Translations under genes and position numbers: made by a program | The notes under the pieces: model-generated | What the model saw: only the letters and a program-made list of their open reading frames with translations | What the model was told of the DNA's origin: nothing | Databases searched by the model: none | Shown: one piece after another, positions 43,567-64,000 of the stretch | Numbering within the stretch: the first letter of the stretch is position 1 | Layout of the letters: every line of letters starts with the position of its first letter | Source of the DNA: a virus | IMG/VR virus record: IMGVR_UViG_3300020478_000004 | Location: 44,526-108,525 of that record | Reading direction: 5' to 3' (one strand) | DNA: 64,000 nt

Positions 43567-43647
43567 GAAAGACGAACACGACACTATTCGGACATGGCCG
43601 CAAAATCATGTTCAAACCATTAAGACACCGCTTTTTATATCATTTGA

Positions 43648-43653
43648 TAAATA
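43648..43653 (+). promoter_or_regulatory. Late-type TAAATA promoter for the leader/aaRS-like/tRNA unit
   Basis: GATAAATACT 10 nt before ATG 43664, the same geometry as at 4984, 9552 and 11153. Confidence 0.6.
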
Positions 43654-43663
43654 CTACTTTAGT

Positions 43664-44847: not shown

Positions 44848-44853
44848 GGCTTT

Positions 44854-44940
44854 TCCGGGGTGGTGGAAACGGTAGACACGATAGCCTGTTTAGCTATTGC
44901 TTGGGAGAGCGTGAAGGTTCGAATCCTTCCCCCGGAGCCA
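44854..44940 (+). tRNA. tRNA-Asn(GUU) with long variable arm (type II body), encoded CCA
   Basis: Acceptor TCCGGGG/CCCCGGA, G73, CCA; D arm GTG-GAAACGGTAGA-CAC; anticodon stem ATAGC/GCTAT with loop CT-GTT-TA; V arm GCTT-GGGA-GAGC; T arm GAAGG-TTCGAAT-CCTTC. Confidence 0.92.
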
Positions 44941-45097
44941 CTGGTCTTGTAAGATGATCTAGTGTGATTGTTTGATGTAGAGGGATCATAGTAGTATCTC
45001 CCTCTGAATTAATATTTTTAGGCTTTGCTTGATATTTAAGTTTTTTAGCCAACTTCTTTTGTTGTCTCATTATATGTCTATCAGAATGTTTAGCCAT
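44894..45097 (-). CDS. Small basic protein whose 3' end runs antisense into the tRNA
   Basis: Overlaps the stop of the upstream - gene; the last ~15 codons are the tRNA complement. Confidence 0.45.
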   Translation of the reverse strand: MAKHSDRHIMRQQKKLAKKLKYQAKPKNINSEGDTTMIPLHQTITLDHLTRPVAPGEGFEPSRSPKQ

Positions 45098-45797: not shown

Positions 45798-46021
45798 TAT
45801 GCACCGCCATCATCTTTGTGTACAGCATGACCATCTTTACGACCATCTTCTTCTACTTTACGTTCAGGTCCTTCACCTTTAAGACTAGCGGCTAAAAAAC
45901 TTGCGGCCGCTAACATAGGTATAGTATATACCATCTTTTCTGTAAAAAAAGCTACAGCATAAGTTGGTACTAAGACTACTAATCCTTGTAAAAGGGCTAT
46001 ACGTATATTACTTATTTTCAT
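45797..46021 (-). CDS. Small 2-TM membrane protein
   Basis: Two hydrophobic segments. Confidence 0.6.
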   Translation of the reverse strand: MKISNIRIALLQGLVVLVPTYAVAFFTEKMVYTIPMLAAASFLAASLKGEGPERKVEEDGRKDGHAVHKDDGGA

Positions 46022-46116
46022 AATTTATCTAACAATTTTTGCAACTTATAACCCATTAACCATACAAAGTTATATATTTTAGCTTTAATAATCCATAGTT
46101 TCATATTATATTTATT

Positions 46117-46413
46117 CTACCCTATACTGCCGGCATCTTCGATATAATCCACTACTTTCTTTTTATTAGGCGGAATAAACGACTCATATGCGTTAGATTG
46201 TTGTAGCTGTTTAATAAGAACATCTTTGTTCTCTAAATCTTCACGTAATTTAGAAATAGTAGCATTACTCAATCCAAGTTCTGATTCTAGGTTACTAATC
46301 TTTCCATCACGTACTTGTAATTGAGATTCTAAAATTGCGATTTGTGTCATAAGCATTGACTCGTTATCTTGAGTCCACATCTCTTTTCTCCTTTGTACAA
46401 GCCCACTTATCAA
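46117..46413 (-). CDS. Coiled-coil hypothetical protein
   Basis: Heptad pattern; true start uncertain. Confidence 0.5.
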   Translation of the reverse strand: MISGLVQRRKEMWTQDNESMLMTQIAILESQLQVRDGKISNLESELGLSNATISKLREDLENKDVLIKQLQQSNAYESFIPPNKKKVVDYIEDAGSIG

Positions 46414-46488
46414 CCCAAGACATTATGGGATTATTTGTAAAAACAATCAAAATATACAGTGGTGCTAATATAAAAATTAAATATTCCA

Positions 46489-46683
46489 TTAAGCGTATAT
46501 GTTTACCATACTCCCTTTACCAACCTCAGGCACTACGGGAGCAGAAGCAGAAGCAGGTCCAGGGGCTGGTGTATTCATAGTACCTGATAACTGCTCTGTC
46601 ATGTTTTCGCCAACAAATCTATCTTGTTGGATAGGTGCTGAGTTTAATGGTTGTGCTGTTGAACTTAACCCTGTTACTTCCAT
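46489..46683 (-). CDS. Small hypothetical protein
   Basis: GGAGAGGGC RBS; ends GKGSMVNIYA. Confidence 0.55.
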   Translation of the reverse strand: MEVTGLSSTAQPLNSAPIQQDRFVGENMTEQLSGTMNTPAPGPASASAPVVPEVGKGSMVNIYA

Positions 46684-46854
46684 GCCCTCTCCTATATTTG
46701 ATTAACTGCCCAAATAATACCAATTAAAAATACTATCCAACCTATGATAATTACTTTAGTTCGTTTACTCATAGGCTTTTCTTTTTCATTCTGTTTAGCA
46801 ATTCTACTATAATGATCTTCGCAATTACCCCATCCCATAATTGCCTCCTCTCGG

Positions 46855-47151
46855 TTACGTCATACTCTTGGCAATAAATTCACACCCTTTTATTACCCCA
46901 TCTACGAATTCTCGTTCTGTATCAAATTTCTCGTGACACGTATTAAAACTAACTTTCATCGAAGTTCCATTATCAACCATATAATGATTTGCTTCTACTC
47001 TAGTTCTACCTAATTCTACAGTATTTGATTCGCAAGTAATTACAGACTCACACCAATCACGGAGTTGATTTGCAATTGCAACTGCGTGTAATAACGGTAT
47101 TCGTACGTAATATGTTTTGACTAATGGATTTCCGGTTAAGGAACACTCCAT
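46855..47151 (-). CDS. Hypothetical protein
   Basis: ORF with RBS. Confidence 0.55.
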   Translation of the reverse strand: MECSLTGNPLVKTYYVRIPLLHAVAIANQLRDWCESVITCESNTVELGRTRVEANHYMVDNGTSMKVSFNTCHEKFDTEREFVDGVIKGCEFIAKSMT

Positions 47152-47169
47152 AACTAGCCCCTTAAAGAA

Positions 47170-47781
47170 TTATATATCGGTAGATTTATAGTCTTTATCG
47201 ACCACGCACATAACCATATGAATTCTGTCTGCTTCACTACCATTAAATTGCGAATGATAAAAACGTGTATCAGTAAACCAGCAAGTTCCAGTTTTCATAT
47301 GATGTACTTCATCTTCGATAATCATTTTTGATCCAATTAACGTTCTTATAGGAACGTGTATTCTTGGCTCTGGATCACGATGCCAAGACAAAGCTCTTCG
47401 TGGACTAGATAGTACTAAACGTACTCTACCAATTCTCCAGTCCGCTGAAATTGTATCATAAACTTCTTTAAAATATGTATGAGCAAACTCTGGAATAAAC
47501 TTTGTATACTCACTTTCGCATATATCTTGTAAACGACTTACTTCTTTACCGGTAGCATCAAACGTATCATAATGCCCGCCAAGTCCTCCACGAAATGCTT
47601 TTTCTTCTTCTTCTTTTTCTGTTAAACAAATTTGTGGAGAGTAAATATCGTTTCTTCCAAACTTGTTTACATTCCCTCCTGACATCTTATCGCCCCAGGG
47701 GCATATTTGCAAGACATCATGCATACCTTGTTCTAGCTTTTCAGCATCGAACTCGTACGTTAATTTTTTAAAATACTTCAC
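47170..47781 (-). CDS. Aspartyl/asparaginyl beta-hydroxylase-like 2OG oxygenase
   Basis: GRVRL...LSWHRD...RIHVP...HSQFNG...RIH. Confidence 0.8.
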   Translation of the reverse strand: MKYFKKLTYEFDAEKLEQGMHDVLQICPWGDKMSGGNVNKFGRNDIYSPQICLTEKEEEEKAFRGGLGGHYDTFDATGKEVSRLQDICESEYTKFIPEFAHTYFKEVYDTISADWRIGRVRLVLSSPRRALSWHRDPEPRIHVPIRTLIGSKMIIEDEVHHMKTGTCWFTDTRFYHSQFNGSEADRIHMVMCVVDKDYKSTDI

Positions 47782-47923
47782 GAAACATATTACCTATTGC
47801 CATTTTTACTTGAACATACCAAGGTGCCATGGCTGGACAACCACTTGGCATATTAATCCATATTAAACCTATCATGGCTCCAACAACAAACGCTCCCATT
47901 CCTACTTTCCAAAATGTTGTCAT
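47768..47923 (-). CDS. Small membrane protein
   Basis: AAGGAG RBS; one TM segment. Confidence 0.5.
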   Translation of the reverse strand: MTTFWKVGMGAFVVGAMIGLIWINMPSGCPAMAPWYVQVKMAIGNMFREVF

Positions 47924-48046
47924 GCTATGCTCCTTTAATAAAGTGTAAAGCAACTAAAGTGCCTATAATAAACACTATCCAAACTACTGTCATTAATACT
48001 CTTTCTTTAGTCTTTGACTTAAAAAGATAATGATGTTCTTGCATTG

Positions 48047-49168
48047 TTATTTCATTATAAACATACTTCCAAACGTTGTTTCGATTGCGTCATTTAATGA
48101 AACGTCTTCTTGTTTATAATAGCCCTTCGGTTTAAGTTTACCCTTTAAAAATAATTCAACCATTGTTAATAATCCTGATGCTGTAGTTAACTCTATTGCT
48201 GTATAATATCTGCCGTTTTCTCTAATAGGATAAAAGAATTTTTTATAACATCTTTCTTTATGGTTACCGTTTTCGTCCCATCCACCAACTACAACATAAA
48301 TGATTACAAGATCACGTCTTGTAGTTGATACACCTCGTTTAATAATGTCAATTAATTCATTTTTAGGAATTCTTAAATCATTCATTAAAAAGTCTATAAG
48401 GTTATGATGTCCTTTATATCTTATTGTTTTATAATTTAAATCTACATTTTCAAATCGTTCATATGGGTGAGAATTAGATATTGTTTTTGCAAACGACCCT
48501 AACCCTCCACTTGTATTAAATGCTTCATATGTATTACCGTCAATCATTAATTCTTCATATCCTGTAAGTGTTGGCACTTTATAATAGCTTCCATTTCTAA
48601 CAATTTCACAGTCGCCACTATATTCATTTATTAATCCATCGGGGCTCCACATCAAATGATACTTTAATTTATTAGTAGAATCTTGTGATAATGAACCTAC
48701 ACGTATTTTAATATAATCAACCTTTTCCATATCATGCATTAGATGGTTAGCAATTACTGTACTCATGCCAGGTGCTAACCCACAATGTGGCATTGTAAAT
48801 GGTAATGGTTTGTTTAGATCAATGTTATGAATAAAGTCATTTAATTCAGCATCTTCTGAGAAATCAAAATAAGGAATGTTATGTTCCAAACAAGCACTAT
48901 ATATAACTACATTTTCAGTATATGGAAGTGCATTAATAACAAGTGTTTTATCAGCTATAAACATCTTAAGCATATTATTGTTAGTGCCCGGATGTCTAGT
49001 ATCTATTTGTTGATAGTGTTCTTCAGCAATTGCTTTAGGATGGAGGTCTTTATAATCACGCATATCCGCTACTGTAACGCTGTATGTTGTACGATCTCTT
49101 AATAGATCGTATACAGCACTACCTATAGCGCCTGCTCCAAATATTGCAATTTTGACTTGATCGGACAT
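48047..49168 (-). CDS. Saccharopine-dehydrogenase-family oxidoreductase (lysine 6-dehydrogenase-like)
   Basis: GAGAIG Rossmann, INALPY, CGLAPG, WSPDGLINEY, YEAFNTSGG, YKTIRYKGH. Confidence 0.85.
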   Translation of the reverse strand: MSDQVKIAIFGAGAIGSAVYDLLRDRTTYSVTVADMRDYKDLHPKAIAEEHYQQIDTRHPGTNNNMLKMFIADKTLVINALPYTENVVIYSACLEHNIPYFDFSEDAELNDFIHNIDLNKPLPFTMPHCGLAPGMSTVIANHLMHDMEKVDYIKIRVGSLSQDSTNKLKYHLMWSPDGLINEYSGDCEIVRNGSYYKVPTLTGYEELMIDGNTYEAFNTSGGLGSFAKTISNSHPYERFENVDLNYKTIRYKGHHNLIDFLMNDLRIPKNELIDIIKRGVSTTRRDLVIIYVVVGGWDENGNHKERCYKKFFYPIRENGRYYTAIELTTASGLLTMVELFLKGKLKPKGYYKQEDVSLNDAIETTFGSMFIMK

Positions 49169-49179
49169 AGTATTATTAC

Positions 49180-50028
49180 TTATCTAGCAAAGTACTCCTT
49201 TAGGATATTAATACCTACAAATTTAAGATTCTTAAACTCCATTAAACGTCTTGTTACATAGGGCATCCAATTATCACCATACGGCACGTATGTTCTAACT
49301 TTATACCCATCTTCTAATAATCGTTTAGCTAAATCTCTTCTAATACCAAATAACATCTCAAAATAAAACTTTGTTTTACAAGCATATTGAGTAGCTAATT
49401 CTTTTATGTTTTCAATAAGGTATTCGTCATGTGTTGCTAATGATACTAATTCTTGTTGATAACTTTTATGATAAAAATATCCGCTTCTAAATAATTCCTC
49501 TACTAACTCTAAGTACGCAAACCTTATTTTAGTCATATTCGTTATATCGCCTTTGTATGCTCCTTTACATATTCTTACTCTACGAAACCTTTCAATTACA
49601 TCAGCTAAATCAGTATATGACCGTTCCATATTAGCTTGTAGCACAATACCTACATCATTAAAACAACGGGAAAATTTTATCGTATCATCAATTAAGTCTG
49701 CCTTTTCCATATCAAATTTAATTTTAATTCTTGGATTATCTTTTATTGCATTAACTATTTGTTCTACAGGCTCTTTCCATTGATATGGTGCATTACCAAA
49801 TTGACTTAACTTAATTGATATTTCATATTGTCTAACAGCCCACGTACCTTTTAGATAATCAATTAAATGTAAATATTCTGTTAAGTTTTTTAATCTTTGT
49901 AAATCTGTAGTAGCAGTTTCACCTACATAATTAATAGTTACTAAATCATAATAAACAATATTATGTATCATAGACTTAACATCATCGCCTGCTATAAATC
50001 TTTTAGCCAACGGATATAATAGTTTCAT
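49180..50028 (-). CDS. Monofunctional proline dehydrogenase
   Basis: RFIAG, SIKLSQ, DME, VLQA, CKGAY, ATHD, EMLFGIR, YVPYG..W.PY..RRL.E. Confidence 0.92.
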   Translation of the reverse strand: MKLLYPLAKRFIAGDDVKSMIHNIVYYDLVTINYVGETATTDLQRLKNLTEYLHLIDYLKGTWAVRQYEISIKLSQFGNAPYQWKEPVEQIVNAIKDNPRIKIKFDMEKADLIDDTIKFSRCFNDVGIVLQANMERSYTDLADVIERFRRVRICKGAYKGDITNMTKIRFAYLELVEELFRSGYFYHKSYQQELVSLATHDEYLIENIKELATQYACKTKFYFEMLFGIRRDLAKRLLEDGYKVRTYVPYGDNWMPYVTRRLMEFKNLKFVGINILKEYFAR

Positions 50029-50504
50029 TATCTCACTTCTTTAAAATATTTTAATTCGTTTTCCATTACACCAAATTTTAATTGCATATCTTTTAATGGA
50101 ATATCCCAATCTTCTTTATGCCAGGGCCATTCGCCTATACGTTTAACACCTTTACGAGTTTTTCCATAATAAAACCCTCTTTGAAATATTTGTATTTGTT
50201 CTTTTGTAAATTTATTTTCTTCTGGATATAAGTAACGTGAAATGAATTTAAATAATGTTACTTCCCAACTTTTAATTCGATCGTCTGTACCCATAGTGAA
50301 TCCGATTACAAATGCTTCTGAATCATTTGATTGATCACACTCTAGTAATACGTGAACAGCATCATGATCACGTAGACTAGCTGACCCGTGTAAACAAAAT
50401 GGAGACATTGGATTCTCCATTAACCATATCATGAAAGGTATTGCCTCTGGCTCTACCGTTTTGTATCCTTGCATGAACCTTTCGAATGCCTGACGAAAAG
50501 TCAT
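50028..50504 (-). CDS. Coq4-like protein
   Basis: HDAVHVL-x8-E motif. Confidence 0.6.
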   Translation of the reverse strand: MTFRQAFERFMQGYKTVEPEAIPFMIWLMENPMSPFCLHGSASLRDHDAVHVLLECDQSNDSEAFVIGFTMGTDDRIKSWEVTLFKFISRYLYPEENKFTKEQIQIFQRGFYYGKTRKGVKRIGEWPWHKEDWDIPLKDMQLKFGVMENELKYFKEVR

Positions 50505-50517
50505 AACTTACCCTCTT

Positions 50518-50796
50518 TTATAAAAACAACATTTTGTATATTCCAAACAATGTAACACATATAACGATTATATTTAACACTACTAAATTAATACTTTGTC
50601 GCATATAAGCATTAACTGAATGTAATAAAGATCCAGCAAGTGTTAAAAGGAACACAAGCATGACTTTAGCATCATCGCCAAACCATGCTAGTACAACATA
50701 AACAGATATAAAACATAATGCACCGGCTGTTTCTATTACTAGTCTTACTCTGTTATTTTCCCAGTCATCTTTTAACCATTGCTGGATACTTTTCAA
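50518..50796 (-). CDS. Small multi-TM membrane protein
   Basis: Three hydrophobic segments. Confidence 0.6.
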   Translation of the reverse strand: MKSIQQWLKDDWENNRVRLVIETAGALCFISVYVVLAWFGDDAKVMLVFLLTLAGSLLHSVNAYMRQSINLVVLNIIVICVTLFGIYKMLFL

Positions 50797-51188
50797 ATAC
50801 TGTCTCCGTCGGGTTTAGGAGCAAATAATTTTGCTCTGTTACCGCCAACAATACAAGCTAAATCTTTATGCTTATAGAAAAATACAATAGCCCATGTGTC
50901 GTTATTTGGATTCATCCACATTTCAACAGACATAAGCTCTTTATAGAATTCGTTATGCACTAGTCCTTCCATGGCTTTATGCATTTTATAATCACTTTCT
51001 GCCATCTCACGCATTTTATCTCTAGTATCACAATACGTAAGAATATTATCTAACTTTTTTAAGTTAGGTTCGTGCTCTTGACTTTCGTGTGCTTTAGCTG
51101 AATTCATACTACATAAAGTTATAGCACACATAATGACAAATAAGAATAATAATCTAAAAAAACCTATATTAGGTTTATACATTGTCAT
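50793..51188 (-). CDS. Secreted/periplasmic hypothetical protein
   Basis: Signal peptide (AKA), two Cys. Confidence 0.6.
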   Translation of the reverse strand: MTMYKPNIGFFRLLFLFVIMCAITLCSMNSAKAHESQEHEPNLKKLDNILTYCDTRDKMREMAESDYKMHKAMEGLVHNEFYKELMSVEMWMNPNNDTWAIVFFYKHKDLACIVGGNRAKLFAPKPDGDSI

Positions 51189-51189
51189 T

Positions 51190-51891
51190 TTACCTCCTTT
51201 CTTCTAAGAGTTGCTCAGAGCCTTTATTAACAATCATGGAACAAGGCATCCATACCTGTTCTTTTGCATGATAGTGAATATTTGATCCACAGTCTAAAAA
51301 CTCAGCGGCCTGTAATGCTTTTTGCGGAGTATTATACGTATGATCAAAAATATTATCTGAATCTATTACTCCATCTGGAACATAACGCTTTAATTCCAAA
51401 TGTTTACCTCCATGGGAACCTTCAGGAAATGGTATTTCTCCAGGAACAGTACCTGGTATTTCTCCACCTTGTCCTGGCCATTGATCTTTATTTTGCTTTC
51501 CTAAAAACTGTTGGTTGTTCCCATGTATTAATGCTTGATGATCTCTCATAAAAGTTTCTATGATTTCATAAAAATCATTTGCATTCTTATATCCAACCCA
51601 GCGTGTAACTTCATGGTCTGTCCATATTATAAATGTAGGAGTTCCAGTTATTTTACCTATACGTTTTTCTTTAAACGCTTGAACATACCAATCTGGTACA
51701 GGTTTATTCATATTAATAATACGTAATGGTATAACTTCACCTGCTGGTGAATCTTTATACGTAGGTTCAACCTCTTTTAAAAAGTTTTGACAGTAACCAC
51801 AGTTGGGATTACTGAACATCAATAATTCTATTGCTTGACTCGGTGATGCGAATAGCAAGACGAATGCTACTGCTATGAATAGCTTTTTCAA
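51190..51891 (-). CDS. Secreted SoxS-like thioredoxin with C-terminal DUF3721-like module
   Basis: Signal peptide, CGYC, GTPTF; tail ALQAAEFLDC...H...WMPC. Confidence 0.7.
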   Translation of the reverse strand: MKKLFIAVAFVLLFASPSQAIELLMFSNPNCGYCQNFLKEVEPTYKDSPAGEVIPLRIINMNKPVPDWYVQAFKEKRIGKITGTPTFIIWTDHEVTRWVGYKNANDFYEIIETFMRDHQALIHGNNQQFLGKQNKDQWPGQGGEIPGTVPGEIPFPEGSHGGKHLELKRYVPDGVIDSDNIFDHTYNTPQKALQAAEFLDCGSNIHYHAKEQVWMPCSMIVNKGSEQLLEERR

Positions 51892-51917
51892 ATCCTTCTC
51901 CTTATAGCTAGTTTTAT

Positions 51918-53441
51918 TTAATCGTCTATTTGAGCTTTCTGCAAAGTACCACTGTAATCAACAAATACTGATTTCCATTCAGTACAATTATCAATCATAC
52001 TATGCCCAGCTTCACGATGCCCGTTACCAGTTCCTTTAGTACCACCGAACGGTAATTGTATTTCTGCACCGATTGTAGACGAATTAATGTAAGTAATGCC
52101 TGTATCAATTTCATGTAATGCTTTAAAGGCAAAATTTACATTCGCCGTATAGACAGCGGCCGATAATCCGTACTTACTATTATTAACCATATCTATGACT
52201 TCATCTGTATCACTAAATGATACTATAGCTACTACAGGACCAAATACTTCTTCCTGGGCTATCATATCATTTTGATCTACATCTGTTATTACTGTAGGTG
52301 TATAGAACCAACCATATGTTTCTGTAAACGTACCATACTTTTCATCTATATCATTAGTTGGATATTGATTTATTTTACCCCCACATAATACTTTATTGTT
52401 AACTGATGCTTCTGTTACCATTGTATGAATCTTCTTTAATGCTTTCTCATTAATAACAGGACCCATATCAACTTTATCATCTAAGCCGTCGCCTATGAAC
52501 AACGACTCTGCTCGTTTAACAAGTTTATCTGTAAAGTCAGCTTTAAGACTGTCGTGTACAAATACTCTAGAACACGCTGTACAACGCTGACCTGATGTGC
52601 CGAATGCACCCCATACAACACCATCTACTGCTAGATCAATATCAGCATCTTCCATTACAACTATTGCATTTTTACCACCCATCTCTAATGAGTATGGTAC
52701 CATACGTTCTGAACATCTAGTTGCAATTTGATAACCTGTTACAGTTGATCCTGTAAATGATACAAACTTAACAGTAGGATTATCTACTAATGGTTGTCCA
52801 GCTGATGGTCCATATCCTGTAACTACATTAAACACTCCTGCTGGAAGTCCTGCTTCTTCGAATACCATTGCTAGTCTGCATACACTTAATGGTGTATCCT
52901 CTGCAGGTTTAATAACCATTGTGTTACCGGCTACAAGGGCAGGGAAGGCCTTCCATGACGGAATGGCTATTGGAAAATTCCAAGGAGTAATTGCTCCAAT
53001 GACGCCTATCGGCATCCTCATGGACATACAGAACTTATCGTTCAGTTCTGAAGGAACAACTTGTCCTCCTAATCTCCGACCTTCACCTGCCGCATAGTAA
53101 CCCATGTCAATTGCTTCTTGGACATCGCCTCGTGTTTCAGATAATGGCTTACCCATTTCTTGGGTCATTACTTTTGCTATATCTTCTTTATCACGCAACA
53201 GAATTTCTGCCGCTTTAAACATTATTTCACCCCGTTTGGGTGCTGGCATCTTACGCCACGTTTTGAATGCCTTCGCGGCCGCCTCAACCGCATTATCTAT
53301 ATCTTCTTTGTTACTGTCTTGTACAGTAGCGATTACTTTAGTACAGTGAGCGGGATTGGTGACTTCAAAAGTCTTGCCAGAAGCCGAGTCTACCCATTGC
53401 CCACCAATGTAATTTTTATAATCAGTTCTGAATATATTCAT
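51918..53441 (-). CDS. NAD-dependent aldehyde dehydrogenase
   Basis: TPWNFP, KPAE, FTGS, LEMGGKN, GQRCTA, EEVFGP, PFGG. Confidence 0.95.
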   Translation of the reverse strand: MNIFRTDYKNYIGGQWVDSASGKTFEVTNPAHCTKVIATVQDSNKEDIDNAVEAAAKAFKTWRKMPAPKRGEIMFKAAEILLRDKEDIAKVMTQEMGKPLSETRGDVQEAIDMGYYAAGEGRRLGGQVVPSELNDKFCMSMRMPIGVIGAITPWNFPIAIPSWKAFPALVAGNTMVIKPAEDTPLSVCRLAMVFEEAGLPAGVFNVVTGYGPSAGQPLVDNPTVKFVSFTGSTVTGYQIATRCSERMVPYSLEMGGKNAIVVMEDADIDLAVDGVVWGAFGTSGQRCTACSRVFVHDSLKADFTDKLVKRAESLFIGDGLDDKVDMGPVINEKALKKIHTMVTEASVNNKVLCGGKINQYPTNDIDEKYGTFTETYGWFYTPTVITDVDQNDMIAQEEVFGPVVAIVSFSDTDEVIDMVNNSKYGLSAAVYTANVNFAFKALHEIDTGITYINSSTIGAEIQLPFGGTKGTGNGHREAGHSMIDNCTEWKSVFVDYSGTLQKAQIDD

Positions 53442-53483
53442 TGGATCTCCTAGCTTGAATAATTATGTACGTATTTAACTCTT

Positions 53484-53831
<348 letters not shown>

Positions 53832-53917
53832 TTATGTTATTAAATGATATAATAGTCCACCAACTATATACACTACTGTTGGTGCACCTACAAAAAATAA
53901 TGCAACTTCTAATCCAG

Positions 53918-54862
53918 TCATGTTGATACCAACTCCTTTGCTTTGGCTTGTTTAGCCATTTGGTCAGCTTTGAGCTTTTCCTTCATAGCTAACTTCCGTT
54001 CCTTCTTCTCTGTTTTTAATCTATCAATTACTACTTGTGCTTCTTCAGTTATATACTCACGCTGAACAAAGCGTCCACCTATCTGTTCACTATCCTTCAT
54101 TTCATCTAGACCTTCCATACTCTGTTTGCCAATCTCTAATATACATGGTGTATACAATTGTACAAACGTAGGTCCAACTTCACGTGCAATATGAACAGCA
54201 TTCTTAATAACTTCTTCAACTCTATTAGGTTTACTTACTGTAAGCATAGTAGAGTAATGACAGCCTGCTTCTTTGGCTATCTCAACTAAACGGACCTTAT
54301 CAAAGTTCTTACCCTTTGGAGCCATTTTAGCAACAAAGCCTTTTTGCATAAGTCCACTCTCTTGACCACCTGTATTAGCATACAACTCGTTATCAAAACA
54401 TATAGTTGTAAAGCGTTCTTGCCTAAACCATGATTGCATAGTCATATCTAATCCAATATCAACTGTAGCACCATCACCAGCTAGAACTATTACATCTTTA
54501 ATCTTATCTGGAAAACGACATCGTAATGCACGGACTAGTCCACTAGCAATAGCATTTTGATTACCAAACAAGCTGTGGATATTATTAACAGCTACATGGG
54601 GGAATACTAAACTAGTACAGCCAGTTGATCCTACAAATACTGTATCTTCTGGGTTTGGTATACTAGCCATAATATAACGAAACGCTATACTCTCTGGACA
54701 ACCCGCACATAAGCTATGTTGTTCAATTAATTCTTTACTTGAGCCTATATCTTTCCACCCTCTATCTTCTTTACCATACGTAGCATTATCAACTAAATCT
54801 TGATATTCAGGTGGCATAATATCAGCTAAATCTTCACATAATACAATCTTCTCTTTTGACAT
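53918..54862 (-). CDS. 2-oxoacid:ferredoxin oxidoreductase beta (TPP-binding) subunit
   Basis: LCAGC, STGC, AGDG-x26-DN TPP motif, YANTGGQES, YTPC. Confidence 0.9.
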   Translation of the reverse strand: MSKEKIVLCEDLADIMPPEYQDLVDNATYGKEDRGWKDIGSSKELIEQHSLCAGCPESIAFRYIMASIPNPEDTVFVGSTGCTSLVFPHVAVNNIHSLFGNQNAIASGLVRALRCRFPDKIKDVIVLAGDGATVDIGLDMTMQSWFRQERFTTICFDNELYANTGGQESGLMQKGFVAKMAPKGKNFDKVRLVEIAKEAGCHYSTMLTVSKPNRVEEVIKNAVHIAREVGPTFVQLYTPCILEIGKQSMEGLDEMKDSEQIGGRFVQREYITEEAQVVIDRLKTEKKERKLAMKEKLKADQMAKQAKAKELVST

Positions 54863-55034
54863 AATAGTTTTCCTTAATGTAACAGAATAACGTGATTCTG
54901 TTATCTATCGCCACATATACCTTTTGCTAAGATTACCATCAGTACTAATCCGATAACTGTAACCGCTAATGTCATGTGTTCTCCAAAGTGTTACTGCGGG
55001 CCCTGTCAAAGCGACCCACATCACAAAGCACTCG

Positions 55035-55256
55035 TTACTTACGAGTAAAGATAGCATAGATCACGCCCACGGATGCCAATCCAACAACACCTTGAGCTCC
55101 TAAGGTAGTAATAATAGCACTAATACCACCTATGATATCGCCACCAATAAATGGTACAGCTTTACCAAATATGACCTGCATAACAATACCTAAAGCTAGT
55201 AAGCTAATACCAGCTTCAGTTAACTTTTTGATCCATCCTATAATTTGATCAAACAT
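55035..55256 (-). CDS. Small 2-TM membrane protein
   Basis: AAGGAG RBS; hydrophobic. Confidence 0.7.
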   Translation of the reverse strand: MFDQIIGWIKKLTEAGISLLALGIVMQVIFGKAVPFIGGDIIGGISAIITTLGAQGVVGLASVGVIYAIFTRK

Positions 55257-55281
55257 TCAATTTGCTCCTTTCGTAATTGAG

Positions 55282-55364
55282 CCGCGAAGCGGATCGCTCC
55301 GCATTAAGCCGAGAATCGGTAAGCTAGATTTTTATACTAGTACGAAGTACTTGCGGTTACGCAA
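55282..55364 (+). other. Cluster of GAA-triloop DNA mini-hairpins
   Basis: CCGC-GAA-GCGG, CCGA-GAA-TCGG, AGTAC-GAA-GTACT, TTGCG-GTTA-CGCAA. Confidence 0.6.
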
Positions 55365-56169
55365 AAAACGGTACCTCCGATTTGGCCTTCTACTGTAACT
55401 CTACCCTATAAAATAGCCTGCATTTACGATGCCTTAAATTGCCCTAAAAACGCTCTAAATGGCTCTTAAACGTCGAATAAGCATCTAACTGCTACTCTGA
55501 CACACAAACGCCTTATAAAGACGTCTATGCACGTTTAAAGCACCATATAAACTACAAGCTAGGACTAACGTCTAGCCTGCATAGCATAGGCGGAAAGACA
55601 AAGCTAACAATATATGCATAATAAAGGGTAGGTGCTCAATAACCAAACAATGCACGGAATCAATAATGCTATGATCCCTACCCAAATTGTGATGTTTAGT
55701 AATATTCTCTTGTAATTCTGTTCCATACTGTTATTAGCCCTATCAAACAGCCTATAACTACGTTAAACTGTAATTCTACATTAAGTAGTTACTGTAGTAC
55801 CTGGATCACACATTACTGCACCAAAGTATACAGATACTACGACAATGGCTATAATCATCCACCATTTCATTTTCATAGTAGTCTCCTTTACAAGTATAAC
55901 GCTTAAGATAGCGAAGGGAATACTCCGCTTATGTGCTACGATGAAGCTGTAGCTACTCACAATATGTTGTGTAATACACGAAGCATATTGCATATATTAC
56001 TTATCTGTTTTACAGTCCGAAATGGGTATTTAGGGCTAAAAATTTGGGCTACGATTTTTTTAATAGAAGTACTTAGGCTTTTGAGGTGGTGATTTTACCC
56101 CTGCTCAACTGCTAAACTGCTACTTCATTTTTAATTACTACGCCCCGTGCCCCTCGCCTCAAGATTATT

Positions 56170-56370
56170 TTAAAATTTATGTTTCTTTCTGAGAATTTTT
56201 AATTTCTTCATCACCTTCTCGAACTCGGGATGATCGCTGTTTCGTACGCCTAGATTTCTTTGTAGCCACGCAACGTTGCTCGCGAACATATCGCTACACT
56301 CGTCTAGGTTACGCCTACTGTTGGGTACGTCCATGTCTAAGGGTATCACCCTAGTAACTCTTAAGCTCAT
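56170..56370 (-). CDS. Small hypothetical protein
   Basis: GGAGG RBS; WLQRNLGVRN..HP. Confidence 0.55.
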   Translation of the reverse strand: MSLRVTRVIPLDMDVPNSRRNLDECSDMFASNVAWLQRNLGVRNSDHPEFEKVMKKLKILRKKHKF

Positions 56371-56546
56371 GCTGGGCCTCCATCGTTATCGTTGTCGTTA
56401 CGGAACCACCATGTAAGCCATGCGGCTAAACATAAGGTCCCTATAATCTGTAATGTCTGTGCTAGTCCTACCATAGTGTTGTCCTATGATGTGTTATAAA
56501 TGAACATAGGGCCCGGAGGCCCTATGCATCCTCCCTATACGATACT

Positions 56547-56906
56547 CTATGTAGTGTATCGCTCCCCAGTGAATATGTTAACCATATCAACGCCGGGACC
56601 CATAGCCGCCCTCGCTTCGAATCTCTCCTCAGCTATTTGCTCTGGGCTTCTTAGCTTTTGTGCCTTCTTGTATGCTTCAATAGCCTCAGCATCTTCTATT
56701 GCTCTTACTTCGATGCTCTTGTCTACTACTGCTTGAGTAATAAGACCTAACGCACAAAAGTCATTCAGCATATCACTGAATGGTATCCTGCCATTGCTAT
56801 CCCAACGGAATACTGTATCCTGGCCGGTCTTGCTATTGTGCATGACCATCCCACTGTTGAAATGCTCTTTGATTTTGTTGATTGTGTAGCCCGTCTGTGT
56901 CTTCAT
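56547..56906 (-). CDS. Early hypothetical protein
   Basis: GAGGG RBS and own sigma70 promoter. Confidence 0.7.
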   Translation of the reverse strand: MKTQTGYTINKIKEHFNSGMVMHNSKTGQDTVFRWDSNGRIPFSDMLNDFCALGLITQAVVDKSIEVRAIEDAEAIEAYKKAQKLRSPEQIAEERFEARAAMGPGVDMVNIFTGERYTT

Positions 56907-57160
56907 CTGTATACCCTCTCGTCTAATTATATATACAGTATAGTCTCAAAGGGCTACAATGTCAACCTTTTTTTGGTCCTGTAACCCTTTGAATTGCTTG
57001 GGCTATTAAGTGGCTATTAGAATAATCACTATGATCACAGCCGCGATCACGCCGATCTTGCCTAATTTTGAGCCCCAGATATTGCTTATGAAGTCCATAA
57101 GTCCTCCTCTATTATGTATATATTAGCATCTAATTTGGGTGGTGTCAATGGTGGATCCGC

Positions 57161-57209
57161 CAAAAAAAGCCCCCTGGTAAAAGTCGAGGGCACAACTCTA
57201 CCAGGGGGT
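57161..57209 (-). terminator. Long-stem intrinsic terminator after the ATPase gene
   Basis: CCCCCTGGTAGAGTTG-TGCCCT-CGACTTTTACCAGGGGG followed by C and T7. Confidence 0.75.
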
Positions 57210-57262
57210 CGGGTCCAACTAAATGGACCCTATCACAGTATACGGAGCTTCTTTTGAGGGCA

Positions 57263-58267
57263 TTAGCTTCGACGTAGTACTGTGTTCTCGGCCATCGCTT
57301 GCCAGTTGTCTGGAAATGCTTTAGCCAAGTCTGCTACCTTTAAGACAGTCCTTAAAGATAATTCTCTTAAGCCCTTCTTATTAATGTCGATGAAGTCCAC
57401 AACCTCTTCGTGTACTCCCTCGGAAAGCTGATGTTCTTTCAGCATACCATCACCGACAATCTGTTTAATACGTAACATCTTCTCACGTTCGGTATCAATT
57501 GTAAGGTCGATGTAATGACATCTACTCTCAATCGCCATTAAGTGATCTCGCAACTTCTTCGACTTAACATTGTCGAACTTAATATTAGTTATGAAGATCG
57601 CTGAACCCTTGAACTCGAAGTGATCCGGAACACCCTCGTTACGCAACTTGAATGAATCTGTGTTCCAACAAATCCTACGTGACTTCTTAGAATCCAAAGC
57701 CGCTTTTAAAATGTTAAGACTTAGATCGTCCTGTAACACTGAGTCACAATCGTCAAAGACTAAAACGTTATCCTTGTCCGCATAGTTGAACAGTTTACAG
57801 TACAACCCAATCGCCGACATCGCACCCTTAACAAATTCGAACTTCTTCGGACGGTCATCGTTTGCGATCTCATGTACAAGATCATGCTTGGCAAGTACTT
57901 TCTCTACACCGAAGCTCTTACCAACGCCTGGAGGGCCTGTTACGATCATCGCACGTACAGTTCCCTTCTTGCAAGCCTTCGTCATATCCTCTAGGATATC
58001 GAAACGCTCACGTATACGCTCAACGGTCTCTTCATCCGTCTCTTCACGTTTAGTTGCTTTCGCTTTGGTTGCCTCGTAGTCATCTGCAGAGTCAACCTTG
58101 ATCTTAATGTTACGATCAGGGAAGCCTGCAATTGCACGACCATCGACTGTTACGTAGCCGCCTTGAGCACCTACTTTGAATTCTTCCACTAGTGGAAAAA
58201 CCATTCCGGCAAGCTCTACGTCTTTGCCGCGGATTTTATAAGATCCAGTTTTTATTCTGATTTGCAT
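57263..58267 (-). CDS. AAA-type P-loop ATPase
   Basis: GPPGVGKS, LVFDDCD, IFITN, SR finger. Confidence 0.85.
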   Translation of the reverse strand: MQIRIKTGSYKIRGKDVELAGMVFPLVEEFKVGAQGGYVTVDGRAIAGFPDRNIKIKVDSADDYEATKAKATKREETDEETVERIRERFDILEDMTKACKKGTVRAMIVTGPPGVGKSFGVEKVLAKHDLVHEIANDDRPKKFEFVKGAMSAIGLYCKLFNYADKDNVLVFDDCDSVLQDDLSLNILKAALDSKKSRRICWNTDSFKLRNEGVPDHFEFKGSAIFITNIKFDNVKSKKLRDHLMAIESRCHYIDLTIDTEREKMLRIKQIVGDGMLKEHQLSEGVHEEVVDFIDINKKGLRELSLRTVLKVADLAKAFPDNWQAMAENTVLRRS

Positions 58268-58491
58268 ATTGCCCTCTATCTGTTGTGGTTAATTTCTAAC
58301 TGTTAACTATAGTATACTCTCATGCATACGTAAAGTCAACCCCTAAATTAAAATATTTCCTATTGTTTGAATGACCCCGCCCAGGAACACAATAAGAACT
58401 CCCAGGATGTGAATGAGCATCGAAAGGATACCGAAGTACCATAACACCCATACCGCACAAGCTATCGCGAACCACTTCCATATCGTTCTCA

Positions 58492-58725
58492 TTAGCCCTC
58501 CTGGTTGGTTTCAAGTTTCTGGAGTTCCTTAACCATGTCAAGGAATTTGTTGAACATCAGATCGATCCTGGATTCTTGCTCCGTGAATCTGTAGTCTTCT
58601 CCCTTGGGGATACAAATTGCTTCGTAGCCTGCCTTCTGGATAGAAGCTGATGCTTTGTTGCAGGTATCCAGGTCGCCATAGACCACCTGGAGATTCAGCG
58701 CCGCCGCTATAAGGAGAAACTTCAT
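58492..58725 (-). CDS. Small hypothetical protein
   Basis: GAGGA RBS; TAATG coupling to the upstream ORF. Confidence 0.55.
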   Translation of the reverse strand: MKFLLIAAALNLQVVYGDLDTCNKASASIQKAGYEAICIPKGEDYRFTEQESRIDLMFNKFLDMVKELQKLETNQEG

Positions 58726-58979
58726 TAGTATTCCTCCCCGTAGTAGCCGTAGTCTTCGTCGGTACCCCAACCAGCACTGGCCAACGCACTCTCGTGGTCA
58801 CCATCCATGCTGTCGTCGAAATCGTCTTCCATGAAACGATCTGACAATTCGTTGCTGTCCATCATGTCAGCAACATCGTCCTCACTCATGTACTTCACGC
58901 ACATAGTGACAGCGTCGATCGGATTGATCAACCCTTCTTCTACCATTTCCAGGAATTTGTTTGTTTGTTCTCTTGCCAT
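58725..58979 (-). CDS. Very acidic early protein
   Basis: Ends DGDHESALASAGWGTDEDYG; GAGGGC RBS. Confidence 0.7.
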   Translation of the reverse strand: MAREQTNKFLEMVEEGLINPIDAVTMCVKYMSEDDVADMMDSNELSDRFMEDDFDDSMDGDHESALASAGWGTDEDYGYYGEEY

Positions 58980-59352
58980 TTTGCCCTCGCTTTGTTAATT
59001 GTTAAGTATATAATAGCACCTAATATCCACAATGTCAACCATTTTTTTTCTTCAATGATTTCAATGACTTACGTCTTTGATCCAACATGGCCAATGACAC
59101 TCGGTCTCCTTTACGGCCCAAGTCGCTAACTCATTGATATTACTGCGGAAATACTCAACAACTGTGGGATCCTGGTAAGCCAGAGTGGCTCCGACCCCTA
59201 TTAGAATTCCTACCCAAATTCTCATTATATTAAGCTCGTTAATGCAATTAAAATTTCGTTAATTATCTGTCCCATAATGTACCCCCTTAATTAATTGTTA
59301 ACTACATTATAGCAAATTGGATTGGTTTTGTCAACCGAAAAAGATGTGTCGC

Positions 59353-62182: not shown

Positions 62183-62280
62183 ATTGCCCTCCGTTGTGTT
62201 CATACTATTATAATACCACCTTTGCTCCGAAATGTCAACCCCTAATTTCCAAAAAATTCGAATTATTTTTGGCTGAGCAC

Positions 62281-62304
62281 AAGTGTTGCAAAAATGCAAC
62301 ACTT
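62281..62304. repeat. Perfect inverted repeat (terminator or operator)
   Basis: AAGTGTTGCA-AAAA-TGCAACACTT. Confidence 0.7.
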
Positions 62305-62325
62305 TTTTTGTGCTGTAAATAGTTG

Positions 62326-62736
62326 TTATAATTGCTCGTCCATATCACTTGCTAAACTTATAACTTCTTCATTATTATATTTGTATTTTTCACTAAATGC
62401 ATTTAGCTCAGCTAAACAAAGCATAAACTCAAGCTCATTTTCATGTAAATGCAAAGCTTCGTAAAATGCTTCTGTTTCGCCTTCTTCATCACTTATTAAA
62501 TGCTTTAAATTTTTATTAATGTAATCCACATCTTTTCTACTATATGCATCACTCATAATTCCGCTATCACACATATAATGTGCAATACCGCCAATTAATG
62601 TAGCACAATAATCTCCAACTACTTCTTTATATTTGTTTACTATTGTTTGCAATTCTGCTTTTTCACTTGCATTAATTGTATTAATTGCATAGTACCACTC
62701 GTTTGTATATTTGCATTGTATTAGTTTTTTAAGCAT
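62326..62736 (-). CDS. Acidic, proline-free early protein encoded without TC/CC dinucleotides
   Basis: GAGGGC RBS; promoter TTGCAT-17-TACAAT; extreme dinucleotide bias. Confidence 0.75.
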   Translation of the reverse strand: MLKKLIQCKYTNEWYYAINTINASEKAELQTIVNKYKEVVGDYCATLIGGIAHYMCDSGIMSDAYSRKDVDYINKNLKHLISDEEGETEAFYEALHLHENELEFMLCLAELNAFSEKYKYNNEEVISLASDMDEQL

Positions 62737-62858
62737 AAGCCCTCACATTTTTTAAGTATTAATAACATTATAATAATTGTAGCATAAGCTGTTCCAAAAT
62801 GCAAGCCACAAAATGCACTATTCTAAAAATAAATCTGCTTTCAAAATGCATTTTTTGG

Positions 62859-62887
62859 TTGACAACGTCTCCAAAATATGTTATAAT
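62859..62887 (+). promoter_or_regulatory. Divergent sigma70 promoter
   Basis: TTGACA-17 nt-TATAAT with TG; a second promoter TTGACT-17-TATTAT at 62988-63016. Confidence 0.8.
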
Positions 62888-63278
62888 AAACTACGGCTCT
62901 GGTGCCTGAAGGTCCATATATGTCTTTTGGCCCCCCTGGCCACTATATCTAGTCTAAAAAAAGATGGGGCCAAACCGTCTTTTTTGGTTGACTTCTACCC
63001 CGAAAGATCGTATTATAATAATACAACCGGAGCAAGAGACGGCGCTCACCAAAAAAAGAGTAAGGTTAAGTCAAACCAGCCGCAGAAAAACTTCGTTACT
63101 CAAAGGCTGGGCCGAACTCTGACCTGAGACTCAGAGCCCTAAGTCATTGAAATCATTGGAGAATTTTGGAAGGCACCTTCAGGCCACCGAACGACCCCAA
63201 GAGGCCCCTCATCCAATCCATTAAATCGGCGACATAAGTCATTGGAATCATTAGACTTTTCTGCTATAATAATTAGAT

Positions 63279-63473
63279 ATGAGACTTAGAAATCCTAAAT
63301 TCAAGAAAAGTATTCGAGATGATCTGCTGAAAAAACCTCAGGTAAATTCTGAAGAAAGTATAGCTAAATTAAAGCCCGAAGAAAATGCTATTAAAGTTCC
63401 GCCAAAAAATGAAGTTAAAAAATTATGGTGGAGCAAATACGAAGCAAACCTCAAAAATCCAAAATCCAAATAA
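63279..63473 (+). CDS. Small basic hypothetical protein
   Basis: TGCTATAAT immediately upstream, so possibly leaderless. Confidence 0.45.
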   Translation: MRLRNPKFKKSIRDDLLKKPQVNSEESIAKLKPEENAIKVPPKNEVKKLWWSKYEANLKNPKSK

Positions 63474-63619
63474 CAGTGAAGAGGCGGTCAGTGAAAACCC
63501 AATTGACCTAAACCTAGTGAAGGCCAAAAACCTAGTGAGCCTTCAGTTAGCCCACAGTGAGAACCCAGTGACCTTATACAGTGAGAGGCCTAGTGATCTA
63601 TATAGTGAGGACCTAGTAA
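63474..63619 (+). repeat. Helically phased YAGTGA repeats (11 copies)
   Basis: Starts at 63474, 63489, 63515, 63533, 63544, 63555, 63566, 63579, 63591, 63603, 63614. Confidence 0.75.
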
Positions 63620-64000
63620 AGGCTGAGGCATCCCTTCATTGCTCCCCTCAGCCACTATAGAGAGAACTATACCCCTATGGTTCAGAAGCGAGCAATCCCT
63701 AATACGCCACAGGCGAGCGAGAGAAGGCCGGAGGCCTGATCGAATACCACCACGCCTACTATATAGGGGCGGCTATTCAAGGATATCAGATCATGGCCTC
63801 ACGGTTTTGGATCATTCTGTGTAGGTTTTTTACACAATTCAAAATCTCTGAGAAAGGTGAGAGGAGGGTGGCGAGAGGCATAGTTTGAATACTCCCACAT
63901 AGCCGAAAGGATTCATCCAATCAACGCCACTTCTTTCCAAACCATACTATACTCACTACCAGGAGGACCAAGAATGCGAGGTGCTCGTAAGGTGTCATAA

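What the first reader, a model, noticed from the sequence alone, without database searches (positions are those of the whole stretch)
62277..62856. 580-bp early gene and promoter with no GA or GG on the template strand
Seen: by manual count, about 60 consecutive G residues on the + strand are all followed by C or T, so the coding (-) strand has no TC or CC. The 136-aa product therefore has no Pro and only AGY Ser codons. The other strand still contains GA/GG, and flanking DNA has no such bias. The gene is the outermost one at the divergent early-promoter junction and is acidic. Inference: selection has removed a strand-specific target motif from a gene that must be expressed first. Possible reasons are bulky sequence-specific phage base modification (GR or YC context) that blocks host RNA polymerase, a host DNA-modifying toxin (DarT-like ADP-ribosylation), or a UC/CC-specific RNase acting on the mRNA. 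The product may be the counter-measure, such as an anti-defence protein, DNA mimic or de-modifier.
Basis: partly seen in the sequence, partly recalled or inferred. Interest (0 to 1): 0.85.

Follow-up and report, generated by a model that had tools for sequence, protein, structure and literature searches.

The report
Phage early gene written without TC/CC
One complete promoter-to-terminator early gene unit of an uncultured marine giant phage, like its counterparts in 25 other metagenomic phage loci, contains no TC or CC on the message strand (so its protein has no proline), which means something in the infected cell reads that two-letter word one site at a time and this unit must escape it.

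Summary
Window 62277-62856 has 60 G on the + strand and none is followed by A or G. The next-longest such run in the 108.5-kb record is 144 bp, and 200 simulated genomes never exceeded 200 bp.

The gap matches one transcription unit on the - strand: promoter, 136-aa gene and terminator hairpin. Synonymous recoding of the same protein expects 11.8 TC/CC and never gave fewer than 2 in 20,000 trials. The 21 C in the untranslated parts also avoid TC/CC.

The bias is selected. All 20 marine-metagenome loci with a homolog (49-65% identity) and 4 of 5 loci with distant homologs have zero TC/CC. Pooled over 19 islands there are 2179 C and no YC, against 35% YC in other genes. Islands are 0.5-1.6 kb and hold 1-4 genes of different families.

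T4, Pelagibacter phage HTVC008M, CAjan and PA5oct have no such island. One related 262-kb record also has a mirror-image gene whose message lacks GA/GG.

My best reading (about 0.4) is escape from a factor that acts on single YC sites of the mRNA. Rho, whose RNA-binding clefts bind UC/CC, is the main rival. Guanine modification on the template strand is weakened. The protein's fold and function are unknown. Earlier agents of this scan saw the same phenomenon on other DNA.

The parts
62277..62856 (-). YC-free island: no TC or CC on the - (message) strand, which equals no GA or GG on the + (template) strand
   Evidence: 60 G on the + strand, 0 followed by a purine. It is the longest such run in the record by a factor of 4.
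62326..62736 (-). 136-aa acidic (pI 4.58), proline-free protein of 'family A'. Conserved core motif: EGDY.ST.L.G.AH..CDSGI.TDA.S..D.
   Evidence: The AlphaFold model has pLDDT 94.9. No significant fold match was found.
62776..62804 (-). Sigma-70-type promoter of the unit: -35 TTGCAT (62804-62799), a 17-nt spacer, and an extended -10 TGcTACAAT (62784-62776)
   Evidence: The same architecture (TTGCWW-N17-TGnTATAAT) is conserved in front of the islands of 16 related loci. It is a sequence match only; no transcript data exist.
62740..62746 (-). Shine-Dalgarno region GTGAGGG, ending 3 nt before the ATG
62283..62302 (-). Terminator hairpin GTGTTGCA-TTTT-TGCAACAC. Both arms are free of YC and of GR. 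The first TC on the message strand comes 8 nt after the stem.
   Evidence: The same hairpin closes the island in 14 of 19 related island ends, and there the first YC follows 5-8 nt after the stem. On the + strand the same hairpin is followed by T7.
62795..62850 (-). Three direct copies of TGCATTTTG (62795-62803, 62809-62817, 62842-62850) in and upstream of the promoter. They may be a regulator site or a second promoter.
   Evidence: conserved in L001, L002, L013 and L018. Function not tested.
62857..62887 (+). Divergent consensus promoter GGTTGACA-N17-TATAAT that bounds the island on its upstream side
62210..62242 (-). Promoter GGGGTTGACA-N17-TATTAT of the next early unit. That unit is not YC-free, and the promoter's spacer already holds a TC.

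Best explanation
The unit is a target-free message. The promoter-to-terminator cassette has been kept free of the dinucleotide pyrimidine-C on its sense strand. A factor that reads YC on single-stranded sense nucleic acid, most likely the mRNA, therefore cannot act on it.

Not one YC is tolerated among 2179 C, so each single site must be harmful. That fits an enzyme that cuts or chemically marks RNA at each site: an endoribonuclease, or an mRNA-modifying toxin of the kind exemplified by CmdT, which marks GA in single-stranded RNA. It fits less well a factor that needs several sites at once.

Under either, the island genes are the ones that must still be made while it is active, for instance its inhibitor.

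Shown: the imprint, its extent, its conservation, and that it acts at the nucleotide level.
For: 1. Nucleotide-level selection. Recoding expects 11.8 +/- 2.9 YC, with a minimum of 2 in 20,000 trials, against 0 observed. The 21 C of the 5' and 3' untranslated parts are also all RC.

2. Strict and old. There is 0 YC in all 20 metagenome loci and in L024-L027 from 45%-GC regions of other phages. Pooled over 16.9 kb there are 2179 C and 0 YC, against 35.5% of C elsewhere. Nearly all 52 family members lack Pro.

3. The extent equals the transcription unit. The island starts 47-135 nt upstream of the conserved promoter's start site and ends 5-8 nt after the terminator hairpin. In L007 two tandem units are separated by 17 untranscribed nt that hold 3 YC. 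The hairpin stem itself is built without YC.

4. The property belongs to the cassette, not to one protein. Islands hold 1-4 genes of at least 5 families.

5. Only the base before C is restricted; the base after it is free. That is typical of single-strand C-binding pockets.

6. There is a precedent for a dinucleotide-specific reader of single-stranded RNA in phage defence: CmdT ADP-ribosylates A in GA of mRNA (PMC11618068). A gene in the related record G001 has a message purged of GA/GG (0 observed, 8.8 expected). So these phages do purge messages of more than one dinucleotide.
Against: 1. No bacterial or phage enzyme with YC specificity on mRNA is known to me or was found in the papers searched.

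2. Neighbouring early units with similar promoters are not purged, so a special timing or role must be assumed.

3. The YC-free zone also covers the promoter spacer and 47-135 nt upstream of the predicted start site. About 18 C that lie outside fixed promoter motifs are all RC there (my count from the sequences printed). A pure mRNA reader explains this only if an upstream start site exists.

4. In G001 the island runs on into the first codons of the next gene without a terminator.

5. In L028 a homolog keeps 3 TCCG sites (6 YC of 94 C). So the ban can be leaky, which also fits quantitative selection.

Confidence: 0.4

Rival explanations
1. Rho evasion. The nascent RNA has no UC or CC, so the primary binding clefts of termination factor Rho have nothing to hold. 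The first early unit is then transcribed to its end even when ribosomes do not follow closely. Its product might act against Rho for the rest of the genome.
For: Rho's primary binding clefts bind 5'-YC (PMC12360218). E. coli Rho recognises up to six CC or UC dinucleotides on nascent RNA. Rho avoidance demonstrably shapes coding-strand composition and is a barrier to phage and other foreign genes (PMC13323073).

The extent fits (start site to intrinsic terminator). YC downstream of the gene is tolerated. Island RNA is 58.5% purine and has less C than other genes (12.9% against 15.2%). The leaky copy in L028 fits quantitative selection.
Against: Rho needs several YC, so single sites should be nearly neutral. 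Yet 0 of 2179 C are YC. C is not minimised but moved into AC/GC contexts (GC observed/expected 2.4). The neighbouring early units are not purged. The mirror GA/GG-free message is not explained, and with 45 YC in 285 nt it would be an ideal Rho target. The host, and whether it has Rho, are unknown.
Confidence: 0.25
2. A clean template strand. The phage modifies G in 5'-GR-3' context. The modified base hinders host RNA polymerase on the template strand, so the first unit read from virion DNA carries no GR on its template.
For: Context-specific G modification exists: CAjan at GA and GGC (PMC7544227) and iggy at GA (PMC10484667). PA5oct is reported to resist enzymes in a way that suggests modified G in GA and/or GG (PMC12191111). 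PA5oct carries the closest phage homolog (55% identity) of this record's DnaB-like helicase.

The island's own -35 box is TTGCWW, which has no GA/TC on either strand. Neighbouring units use TTGACA. The YC-free zone includes the promoter.
Against: CAjan and PA5oct have no GR- or YC-free gene island. Their longest runs are 242 and 311 bp, and the 311-bp run holds no ORF. No TGT/DpdA, PTPS or thymidylate-synthase-like gene was found in G000 or G001. This is weak evidence: both records are incomplete and PA5oct also gives no TGT hit.

In G001 a gene transcribed in the same direction has the opposite strand clean. Internal TTGACA promoters occur inside islands. From my own knowledge, 7-deazaguanine templates are generally transcribed.
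Confidence: 0.12
3. Protection of the displaced non-template DNA strand. A single-strand-DNA enzyme that targets C preceded by a pyrimidine attacks the coding strand exposed in transcription bubbles of the earliest, most heavily transcribed unit. It could be an APOBEC-like deaminase, a dC-specific endonuclease like T4 endonuclease IV, or a DarT-like transferase. Sites were removed by selection, by the resulting C-to-T hypermutation, or by both.
For: It has the same extent as transcription. Pyrimidine-before-C is the classic preference of single-strand cytosine-targeting enzymes (my knowledge of APOBEC3, DddA and T4 endonuclease IV, which prefers TCA). TT is somewhat enriched on the message strand (observed/expected 1.24).
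Against: Other transcribed genes, and the lagging-strand template, would be exposed as well. DarT2's TNTC motif does not explain CC (PMC11543638). No such anti-phage enzyme acting on transcription bubbles is known. The mirror class is not explained. The zone extends upstream of the melted region.
Confidence: 0.1
4. A chance or compositional by-product of an AT-rich, helical, proline-free protein.
For: The unit has 29% G+C and the protein is helical.
Against: None of 20,000 recodings of the same protein reached zero YC. The Markov null gave at most 200 bp. The untranslated parts share the ban. The pattern recurs in 45%-GC loci with 72 C per gene.
Confidence: 0.01

Closest known systems
Rho avoidance by coding-strand composition (purine bias; Nat Microbiol 2026, PMC13323073) and the 5'-YC specificity of Rho's primary binding site (PMC12360218)
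   Same: The same two dinucleotides (UC, CC), read on nascent single-stranded RNA. Selection acts on synonymous sites and amino-acid use. It is a stated barrier for phage and other foreign genes.
   Different: Known Rho avoidance is a genome-wide, graded bias. Here the ban is absolute, limited to one 0.5-1.6 kb cassette per phage record, and costs the proteins all their proline. C is kept but re-contexted.
CmdTAC defence: CmdT ADP-ribosylates A in GA dinucleotides of single-stranded mRNA (Nature 2024, PMC11618068)
   Same: A dinucleotide-specific reader of single-stranded RNA that blocks translation of phage messages. It matches the mirror gene in G001, whose message lacks GA/GG.
   Different: The window's message is rich in GA (26-34 per homolog) and lacks YC instead. 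CmdT is triggered late, by capsid protein. No avoidance of its motif by phages has been described.
Target-site avoidance in phage genomes and toxin-resistant messages (restriction-site avoidance; ACA-less mRNAs that survive MazF). Recalled from my own knowledge, not checked here.
   Same: Sequence purged of the recognition word of a sequence-specific enzyme.
   Different: Those words are 3-8 nt long and mostly strand-symmetric. Here the word is 2 nt, on one strand only, and limited to a transcription unit.
Context-specific 7-deazaguanine DNA modification (CAjan GA/GGC, PMC7544227; iggy GA, PMC10484667; PA5oct suspected GA and/or GG, PMC12191111)
   Same: The same dinucleotide context (G followed by a purine) on DNA. 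PA5oct shares its replicative helicase lineage with this phage.
   Different: No modification genes were found here. The modified phages examined have no motif-free early genes.
Promoter-early-stem-loop (PeSL) cassettes of hyperplastic regions in T4-type phages (my recollection of Arbiol, Comeau and Krisch 2010; not checked here)
   Same: Small early ORFs, each with a sigma-70 promoter and a stem-loop, arranged in tandem and shuffled between relatives.
   Different: PeSL cassettes are not known to carry any dinucleotide ban. T4 has no such island.

Membership tests
Rho-evading (rut-free) transcript | No or few YC dinucleotides on the nascent RNA | tested here: met
   0 YC over the whole unit and in 24 related loci
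Rho-evading (rut-free) transcript | Purine-rich RNA with C below G | tested here: met
   Pooled islands: A 39.5, G 19.0, C 12.9, T 28.6%
Rho-evading (rut-free) transcript | Graded depletion, since Rho needs several sites | tested here: not met
   Absolute zero among 2179 C. Only L028 is graded.
Rho-evading (rut-free) transcript | Rho-dependent termination of versions that contain YC in the host | not testable with these tools
   Host unknown; no culture and no transcript data
Escape from a CmdT-like GA-specific mRNA ADP-ribosyltransferase | Message lacks GA | tested here: not met
   On the message strand of the window island GA = 34 and GG = 12 (the + strand's TC and CC). The feature is met only by the separate mirror gene G001 69218-69502.
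Phage with DpdA-type 7-deazaguanine DNA modification | DpdA/TGT-family transglycosylase and preQ0 synthesis genes | tested here: inconclusive
   PF01702 and PF01242 give no hit in G000 or G001. But these records are 31% and 73% complete, and PA5oct gives no PF01702 hit either.
Phage with DpdA-type 7-deazaguanine DNA modification | Modified G in virion DNA | not testable with these tools
   Needs LC-MS or nanopore/SMRT of virion DNA
DarT2 (TNTC) target avoidance | The avoided word is TNTC on single-stranded DNA | tested here: not met
   CC is banned as strictly as TC, and TC is banned regardless of the base two positions upstream. Motif from PMC11543638.
T4-type early (PeSL-like) cassette | Sigma-70 promoter plus stem-loop flanking small ORFs in tandem arrays of a T4-like phage | tested here: met
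   Promoters and hairpins. T4-type gp15, sheath, terminase, gp32 and UvsX in the record. Sequence level only.
Any described protein family for the 136-aa product | Significant Pfam, PHROG, PDB-sequence or fold match | tested here: not met
   Pfam and PHROGs gave none. The PDB profile search gave E 0.015 only. Foldseek PDB and BFVD gave no hit at E <= 0.001. The best VIA-align Z was 6.4, on 48 residues of a three-helix bundle.

The most novel reading that the evidence does not exclude
Aquatic bacteria, or the giant phages that infect them, possess a still undescribed set of enzymes. Each acts on one dinucleotide of single-stranded RNA: YC here, GR for the mirror gene. The purged early cassettes are their negative imprint. 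The proline-free proteins of families A and B would then be the inhibitors or partners of the YC-specific enzyme.
Probability: 0.3. Interest if true: 0.9.

Novelty: new variant of a known kind. Interest (0 to 1): 0.8.

Why it matters
A complete ban on a two-letter word is strong enough to forbid an amino acid, and it has been kept across deeply diverged phages. It is therefore a clean genomic footprint of a sequence-reading factor that decides whether the first phage genes are expressed.

If it is a new RNA-cutting or RNA-marking enzyme, the footprint gives its specificity before the enzyme is found. It also supplies ready-made resistant messages and candidate inhibitors.

The test is simple: native against synonymously recoded genes. 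Such islands can also be searched for in any phage genome by composition alone.

Tried and rejected
- **Chance or composition:** rejected.
- **Codon- or tRNA-level cause (no tRNA-Pro or tRNA-Ser-UCN needed):** rejected. Codon junctions, untranslated parts and the terminator stem obey the ban.
- **UV photoproducts at TC/CC, or oxidation-prone 5'-G of GG/GA:** rejected. TT and CT are not avoided, the wrong strand is clean for a polymerase block, and per-site selection would be far too weak.
- **Duplex-level physical property:** rejected. The same base-pair steps are present in the other orientation.
- **First-injected genome end (T5/T7-like):** not supported. The record is a 31% fragment of a T4-like phage, and the contig end is not a genome end.
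- **Homologs in cultured phages:** none found by tblastn with three family members or by DNA.
- **Island scan of reference phages:** HTVC008M, CAjan, T4 and PA5oct have none.
- **Rfam on the junction and on L024:** nothing.
- **Fold searches for families A and B:** no significant match. ESM Atlas gave no usable hit.
- **Family B and the mirror family M:** not found in this record.
- **DarT1:** no consensus motif is reported.
- **Complex prediction:** not used, because the report does not claim that any two proteins bind.

Full report
**Observation.** On the + strand of window 62277-62856 there are 60 G: 35 are followed by C, 25 by T, and none by A or G. The run is bounded by GA at 62275-76 and GG at 62857-58. 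It is the longest G[AG]-free run in the whole 108,525-bp record, at 582 against 144 for the next. No other dinucleotide or pair of dinucleotides gives a comparable outlier on either strand. Two hundred first-order Markov genomes of the same composition gave a longest GR- or YC-free run of 145 on average and 200 at most. The complementary strand does carry GA/GG, because the + strand has 34 TC and 12 CC. The bias is therefore strand-specific.

**Anatomy.** The run coincides with one transcription unit on the - strand:
- a sigma-70-type promoter, with -35 TTGCAT at 62804-62799, a 17-nt spacer and an extended -10 TGcTACAAT at 62784-62776;
- a Shine-Dalgarno sequence at 62740-62746;
- a 136-codon ORF at 62736-62326;
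- a hairpin GTGTTGCA-TTTT-TGCAACAC at 62302-62283.

The first TC on the message strand comes 8 nt after the hairpin. Upstream, the run ends at the -35 box of a divergent consensus promoter (62859-62887, +).

The protein is acidic (pI 4.58) and has no proline, although other genes of the record have 4.0% Pro. Its Ser codons are 7 AGT and 1 AGC, whereas TCN codons make up 57% of Ser elsewhere. All 12 codons that begin with C follow a codon ending in A or G.

Recoding the same protein with the record's codon usage gives 11.8 +/- 2.9 YC and never fewer than 2 in 20,000 trials. The 21 C of the untranslated parts are also all preceded by a purine. The constraint therefore acts on nucleotides, not on codons or on the protein.

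**What the record is.** The record is an IMG/VR contig that CheckV rates 31% complete. It carries T4-type gp15, tail sheath, terminase, gp32, UvsX, a DnaB-like helicase and a primase, plus many auxiliary metabolic and sugar-modifying genes. Its helicase is closest to those of giant phages such as PA5oct, at 55% identity. It is therefore a fragment of a large T4-like marine phage. The nearby contig end is not a genome end.

The unit is the first of a series of - strand early cassettes. The others have GGTTGACA-N17-TATAAT-type promoters, and none of them is purged.

**Conservation.** The protein has no Pfam or PHROG family. It does have 16 unnamed metagenomic relatives in one search and 38 cluster representatives in an exhaustive search.
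- Twenty marine-metagenome loci encode homologs of 49-65% identity. All twenty have zero TC and zero CC on the coding strand, with 17-57 C per match. Their YC-free runs are mostly 660-1636 bp.
- Five IMG/VR loci encode distant homologs in regions of 45% G+C. Four of them are again strictly YC-free, for example 72 C in the gene and a 1359-bp island in L024.
- In L028 the homolog is only strongly depleted: 6 YC of 94 C, in three TCCG sites.
- Pooled over 19 islands (16.9 kb) there are 2179 C and no YC. In the other genes of the record 35.5% of C are YC. The base after C is unrestricted.
- Almost all 52 family members have no proline. One apparent exception has a tail that I read as sequencing-adapter-derived.

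**Extent in the relatives.**
- The islands start 47-135 nt upstream of the start site predicted from a conserved promoter (TTGCWW-N17-TGnTATAAT).
- In 14 of 19 island ends they stop 5-8 nt after the same conserved hairpin. Elsewhere they stop inside the -35 box of the next promoter.
- In L007 two purged units lie in tandem. The 17 nt between the terminator of one and the promoter of the next hold three YC.
- Islands hold one to four genes of at least five families: A; a '..TEYRE..' family B; a small Cys-rich ORF; a 45-aa ORF; and a 22-aa hydrophobic peptide.
- In the 262-kb record G001 the island is the only YC-free run above 300 bp. It consists of three promoter-gene units and runs 18 nt into a fourth gene that is not purged.

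The property therefore belongs to particular early cassettes, from about the promoter to the end of the last gene or its terminator.

**A mirror class.** In G001 another early gene is transcribed in the same direction (69218-69502, 94 aa, very basic). Its coding strand has 38 G and no GA or GG. Recoding expects 8.8 +/- 2.4 and never reached zero in 20,000 trials. All seven Arg codons are CGY. Its 20 homologs almost all lack Asp, Glu, Gly and Trp. Here the purged zone is the coding sequence only, because the Shine-Dalgarno sequence keeps GA/GG. This record (G000) has no such gene. A single 'clean template strand' cannot explain both classes.

**Controls.** No island of either class exists in Pelagibacter phage HTVC008M, T4, CAjan or PA5oct. 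The last two matter most. CAjan has G modified at GA and GGC (PMC7544227). PA5oct is reported to behave as if G were modified in GA and/or GG (PMC12191111).

**Mechanism.** The strand specificity and the fit to transcription units call for a process that reads the sense strand as a single strand. That could be the mRNA, the nascent RNA, or the displaced non-template DNA. Alternatively the template strand is read for the complementary word.

- *A single-site RNA reader (about 0.4).* The absolute nature of the ban argues that each single site is harmful. That favours an enzyme that cuts or marks every site. CmdT, which ADP-ribosylates A in GA of single-stranded mRNA and blocks translation (PMC11618068), shows that dinucleotide-specific RNA readers exist in phage defence. 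Its specificity matches the mirror gene. By analogy I rank escape from a YC-specific RNA-targeting factor first. The factor could be a host toxin or the phage's own shutoff enzyme.
- *Rho (about 0.25).* Rho is the only known factor with exactly this specificity. Its primary binding clefts hold 5'-YC (PMC12360218), and Rho avoidance is now known to shape coding strands and to hinder foreign genes (PMC13323073). It explains the extent and the purine richness. It does not explain the absolute zero, the retention of C in AC/GC contexts, or the mirror gene.
- *Template-strand G modification (about 0.12).* This gains from the PA5oct report and from the GA-free -35 box of the island promoter. It loses from the two control phages and from the mirror gene.
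- *Attack on the displaced DNA strand (about 0.1).* This shares the geometry but has no known agent.

One weak point applies to all RNA models: the promoter spacer and upstream region are also purged.

**The proteins.** AlphaFold models of family A (pLDDT 94.9) and family B (pLDDT 91.2) are confident. Neither has a significant match in the PDB, and family A also has none in BFVD. Their function is unknown.

**Earlier notes of this scan.** After I had reached these results, a look-up showed that other agents had found TC/CC-free early genes in uncultured pond and lake giant phages, and CC/GG-free cassettes in other phages. Their notes gave me three leads: CmdTAC, the Rho purine-bias paper and PA5oct. 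I read the papers and scanned PA5oct myself. The phenomenon therefore recurs on other DNA, and its reader is still unidentified.

Noticed in passing
G001 69218-69502 (L036 9218-9502, + strand): Mirror-image gene. It encodes a 94-aa very basic protein with no D, E, G or W. Its coding strand has 38 G and no GA/GG (8.8 expected from recoding), and all its Arg codons are CGY. The amino-acid pattern is conserved in 20 homologs. The purged zone is the coding sequence only.
   Followed up: partly
L028 1521-1805 and 2108-2527: A 43.5-kb IMG/VR contig where the family A homolog and an upstream gene are strongly but not fully YC-depleted (6 of 94 C and 2 of 54 C). The three sites in the homolog are all TCCG. 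This could be a relaxed or weaker version of the ban.
   Followed up: partly
window 62890-63280 and 63480-63620: About 400 bp to the right of the island carry consensus promoters (62859, 62988, 63242) but no convincing ORF. The first stretch is conserved in relatives. Further right lies a cluster of (C/T)AGTGA-type repeats. These may be small RNAs or a replication or packaging site. Rfam found nothing.
   Followed up: partly
L005 965-1115, L006 6573-6748, L007 1964-2171, L014 929-1083: Directly after the island terminator some relatives carry tandem copies of a G-free unit (CTATCCTAAAATACAA-like), 150-210 bp long.
   Followed up: no
window 62281-62304 (+): The island's terminator hairpin is followed by T7 on the + strand but only by TTGTG on the - strand. 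As an intrinsic terminator it looks stronger against antisense transcription coming from the left than for the gene itself.
   Followed up: no
window 26000-45000 (+): Three ORFs match PHROG 274 'DNA endonuclease V'. HTVC008M likewise has several copies. The block also holds ClpP and many 2OG-Fe(II) oxygenase, carbamoyltransferase and methyltransferase genes.
   Followed up: no
window 45000-59000 (-): The early-strand block carries metabolic genes: an aldehyde dehydrogenase (E 3e-170), a proline dehydrogenase, a saccharopine dehydrogenase, a TPP-enzyme beta subunit with a 2[4Fe-4S] ferredoxin, and an Asp/Asn beta-hydroxylase.
   Followed up: no
protein P0038 (database relative): Its C-terminal 20 residues (CLLYTSPSPRDRTRSRMPSSA) look to me like a translated sequencing adapter. 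On that reading its three prolines are an artefact.
   Followed up: no
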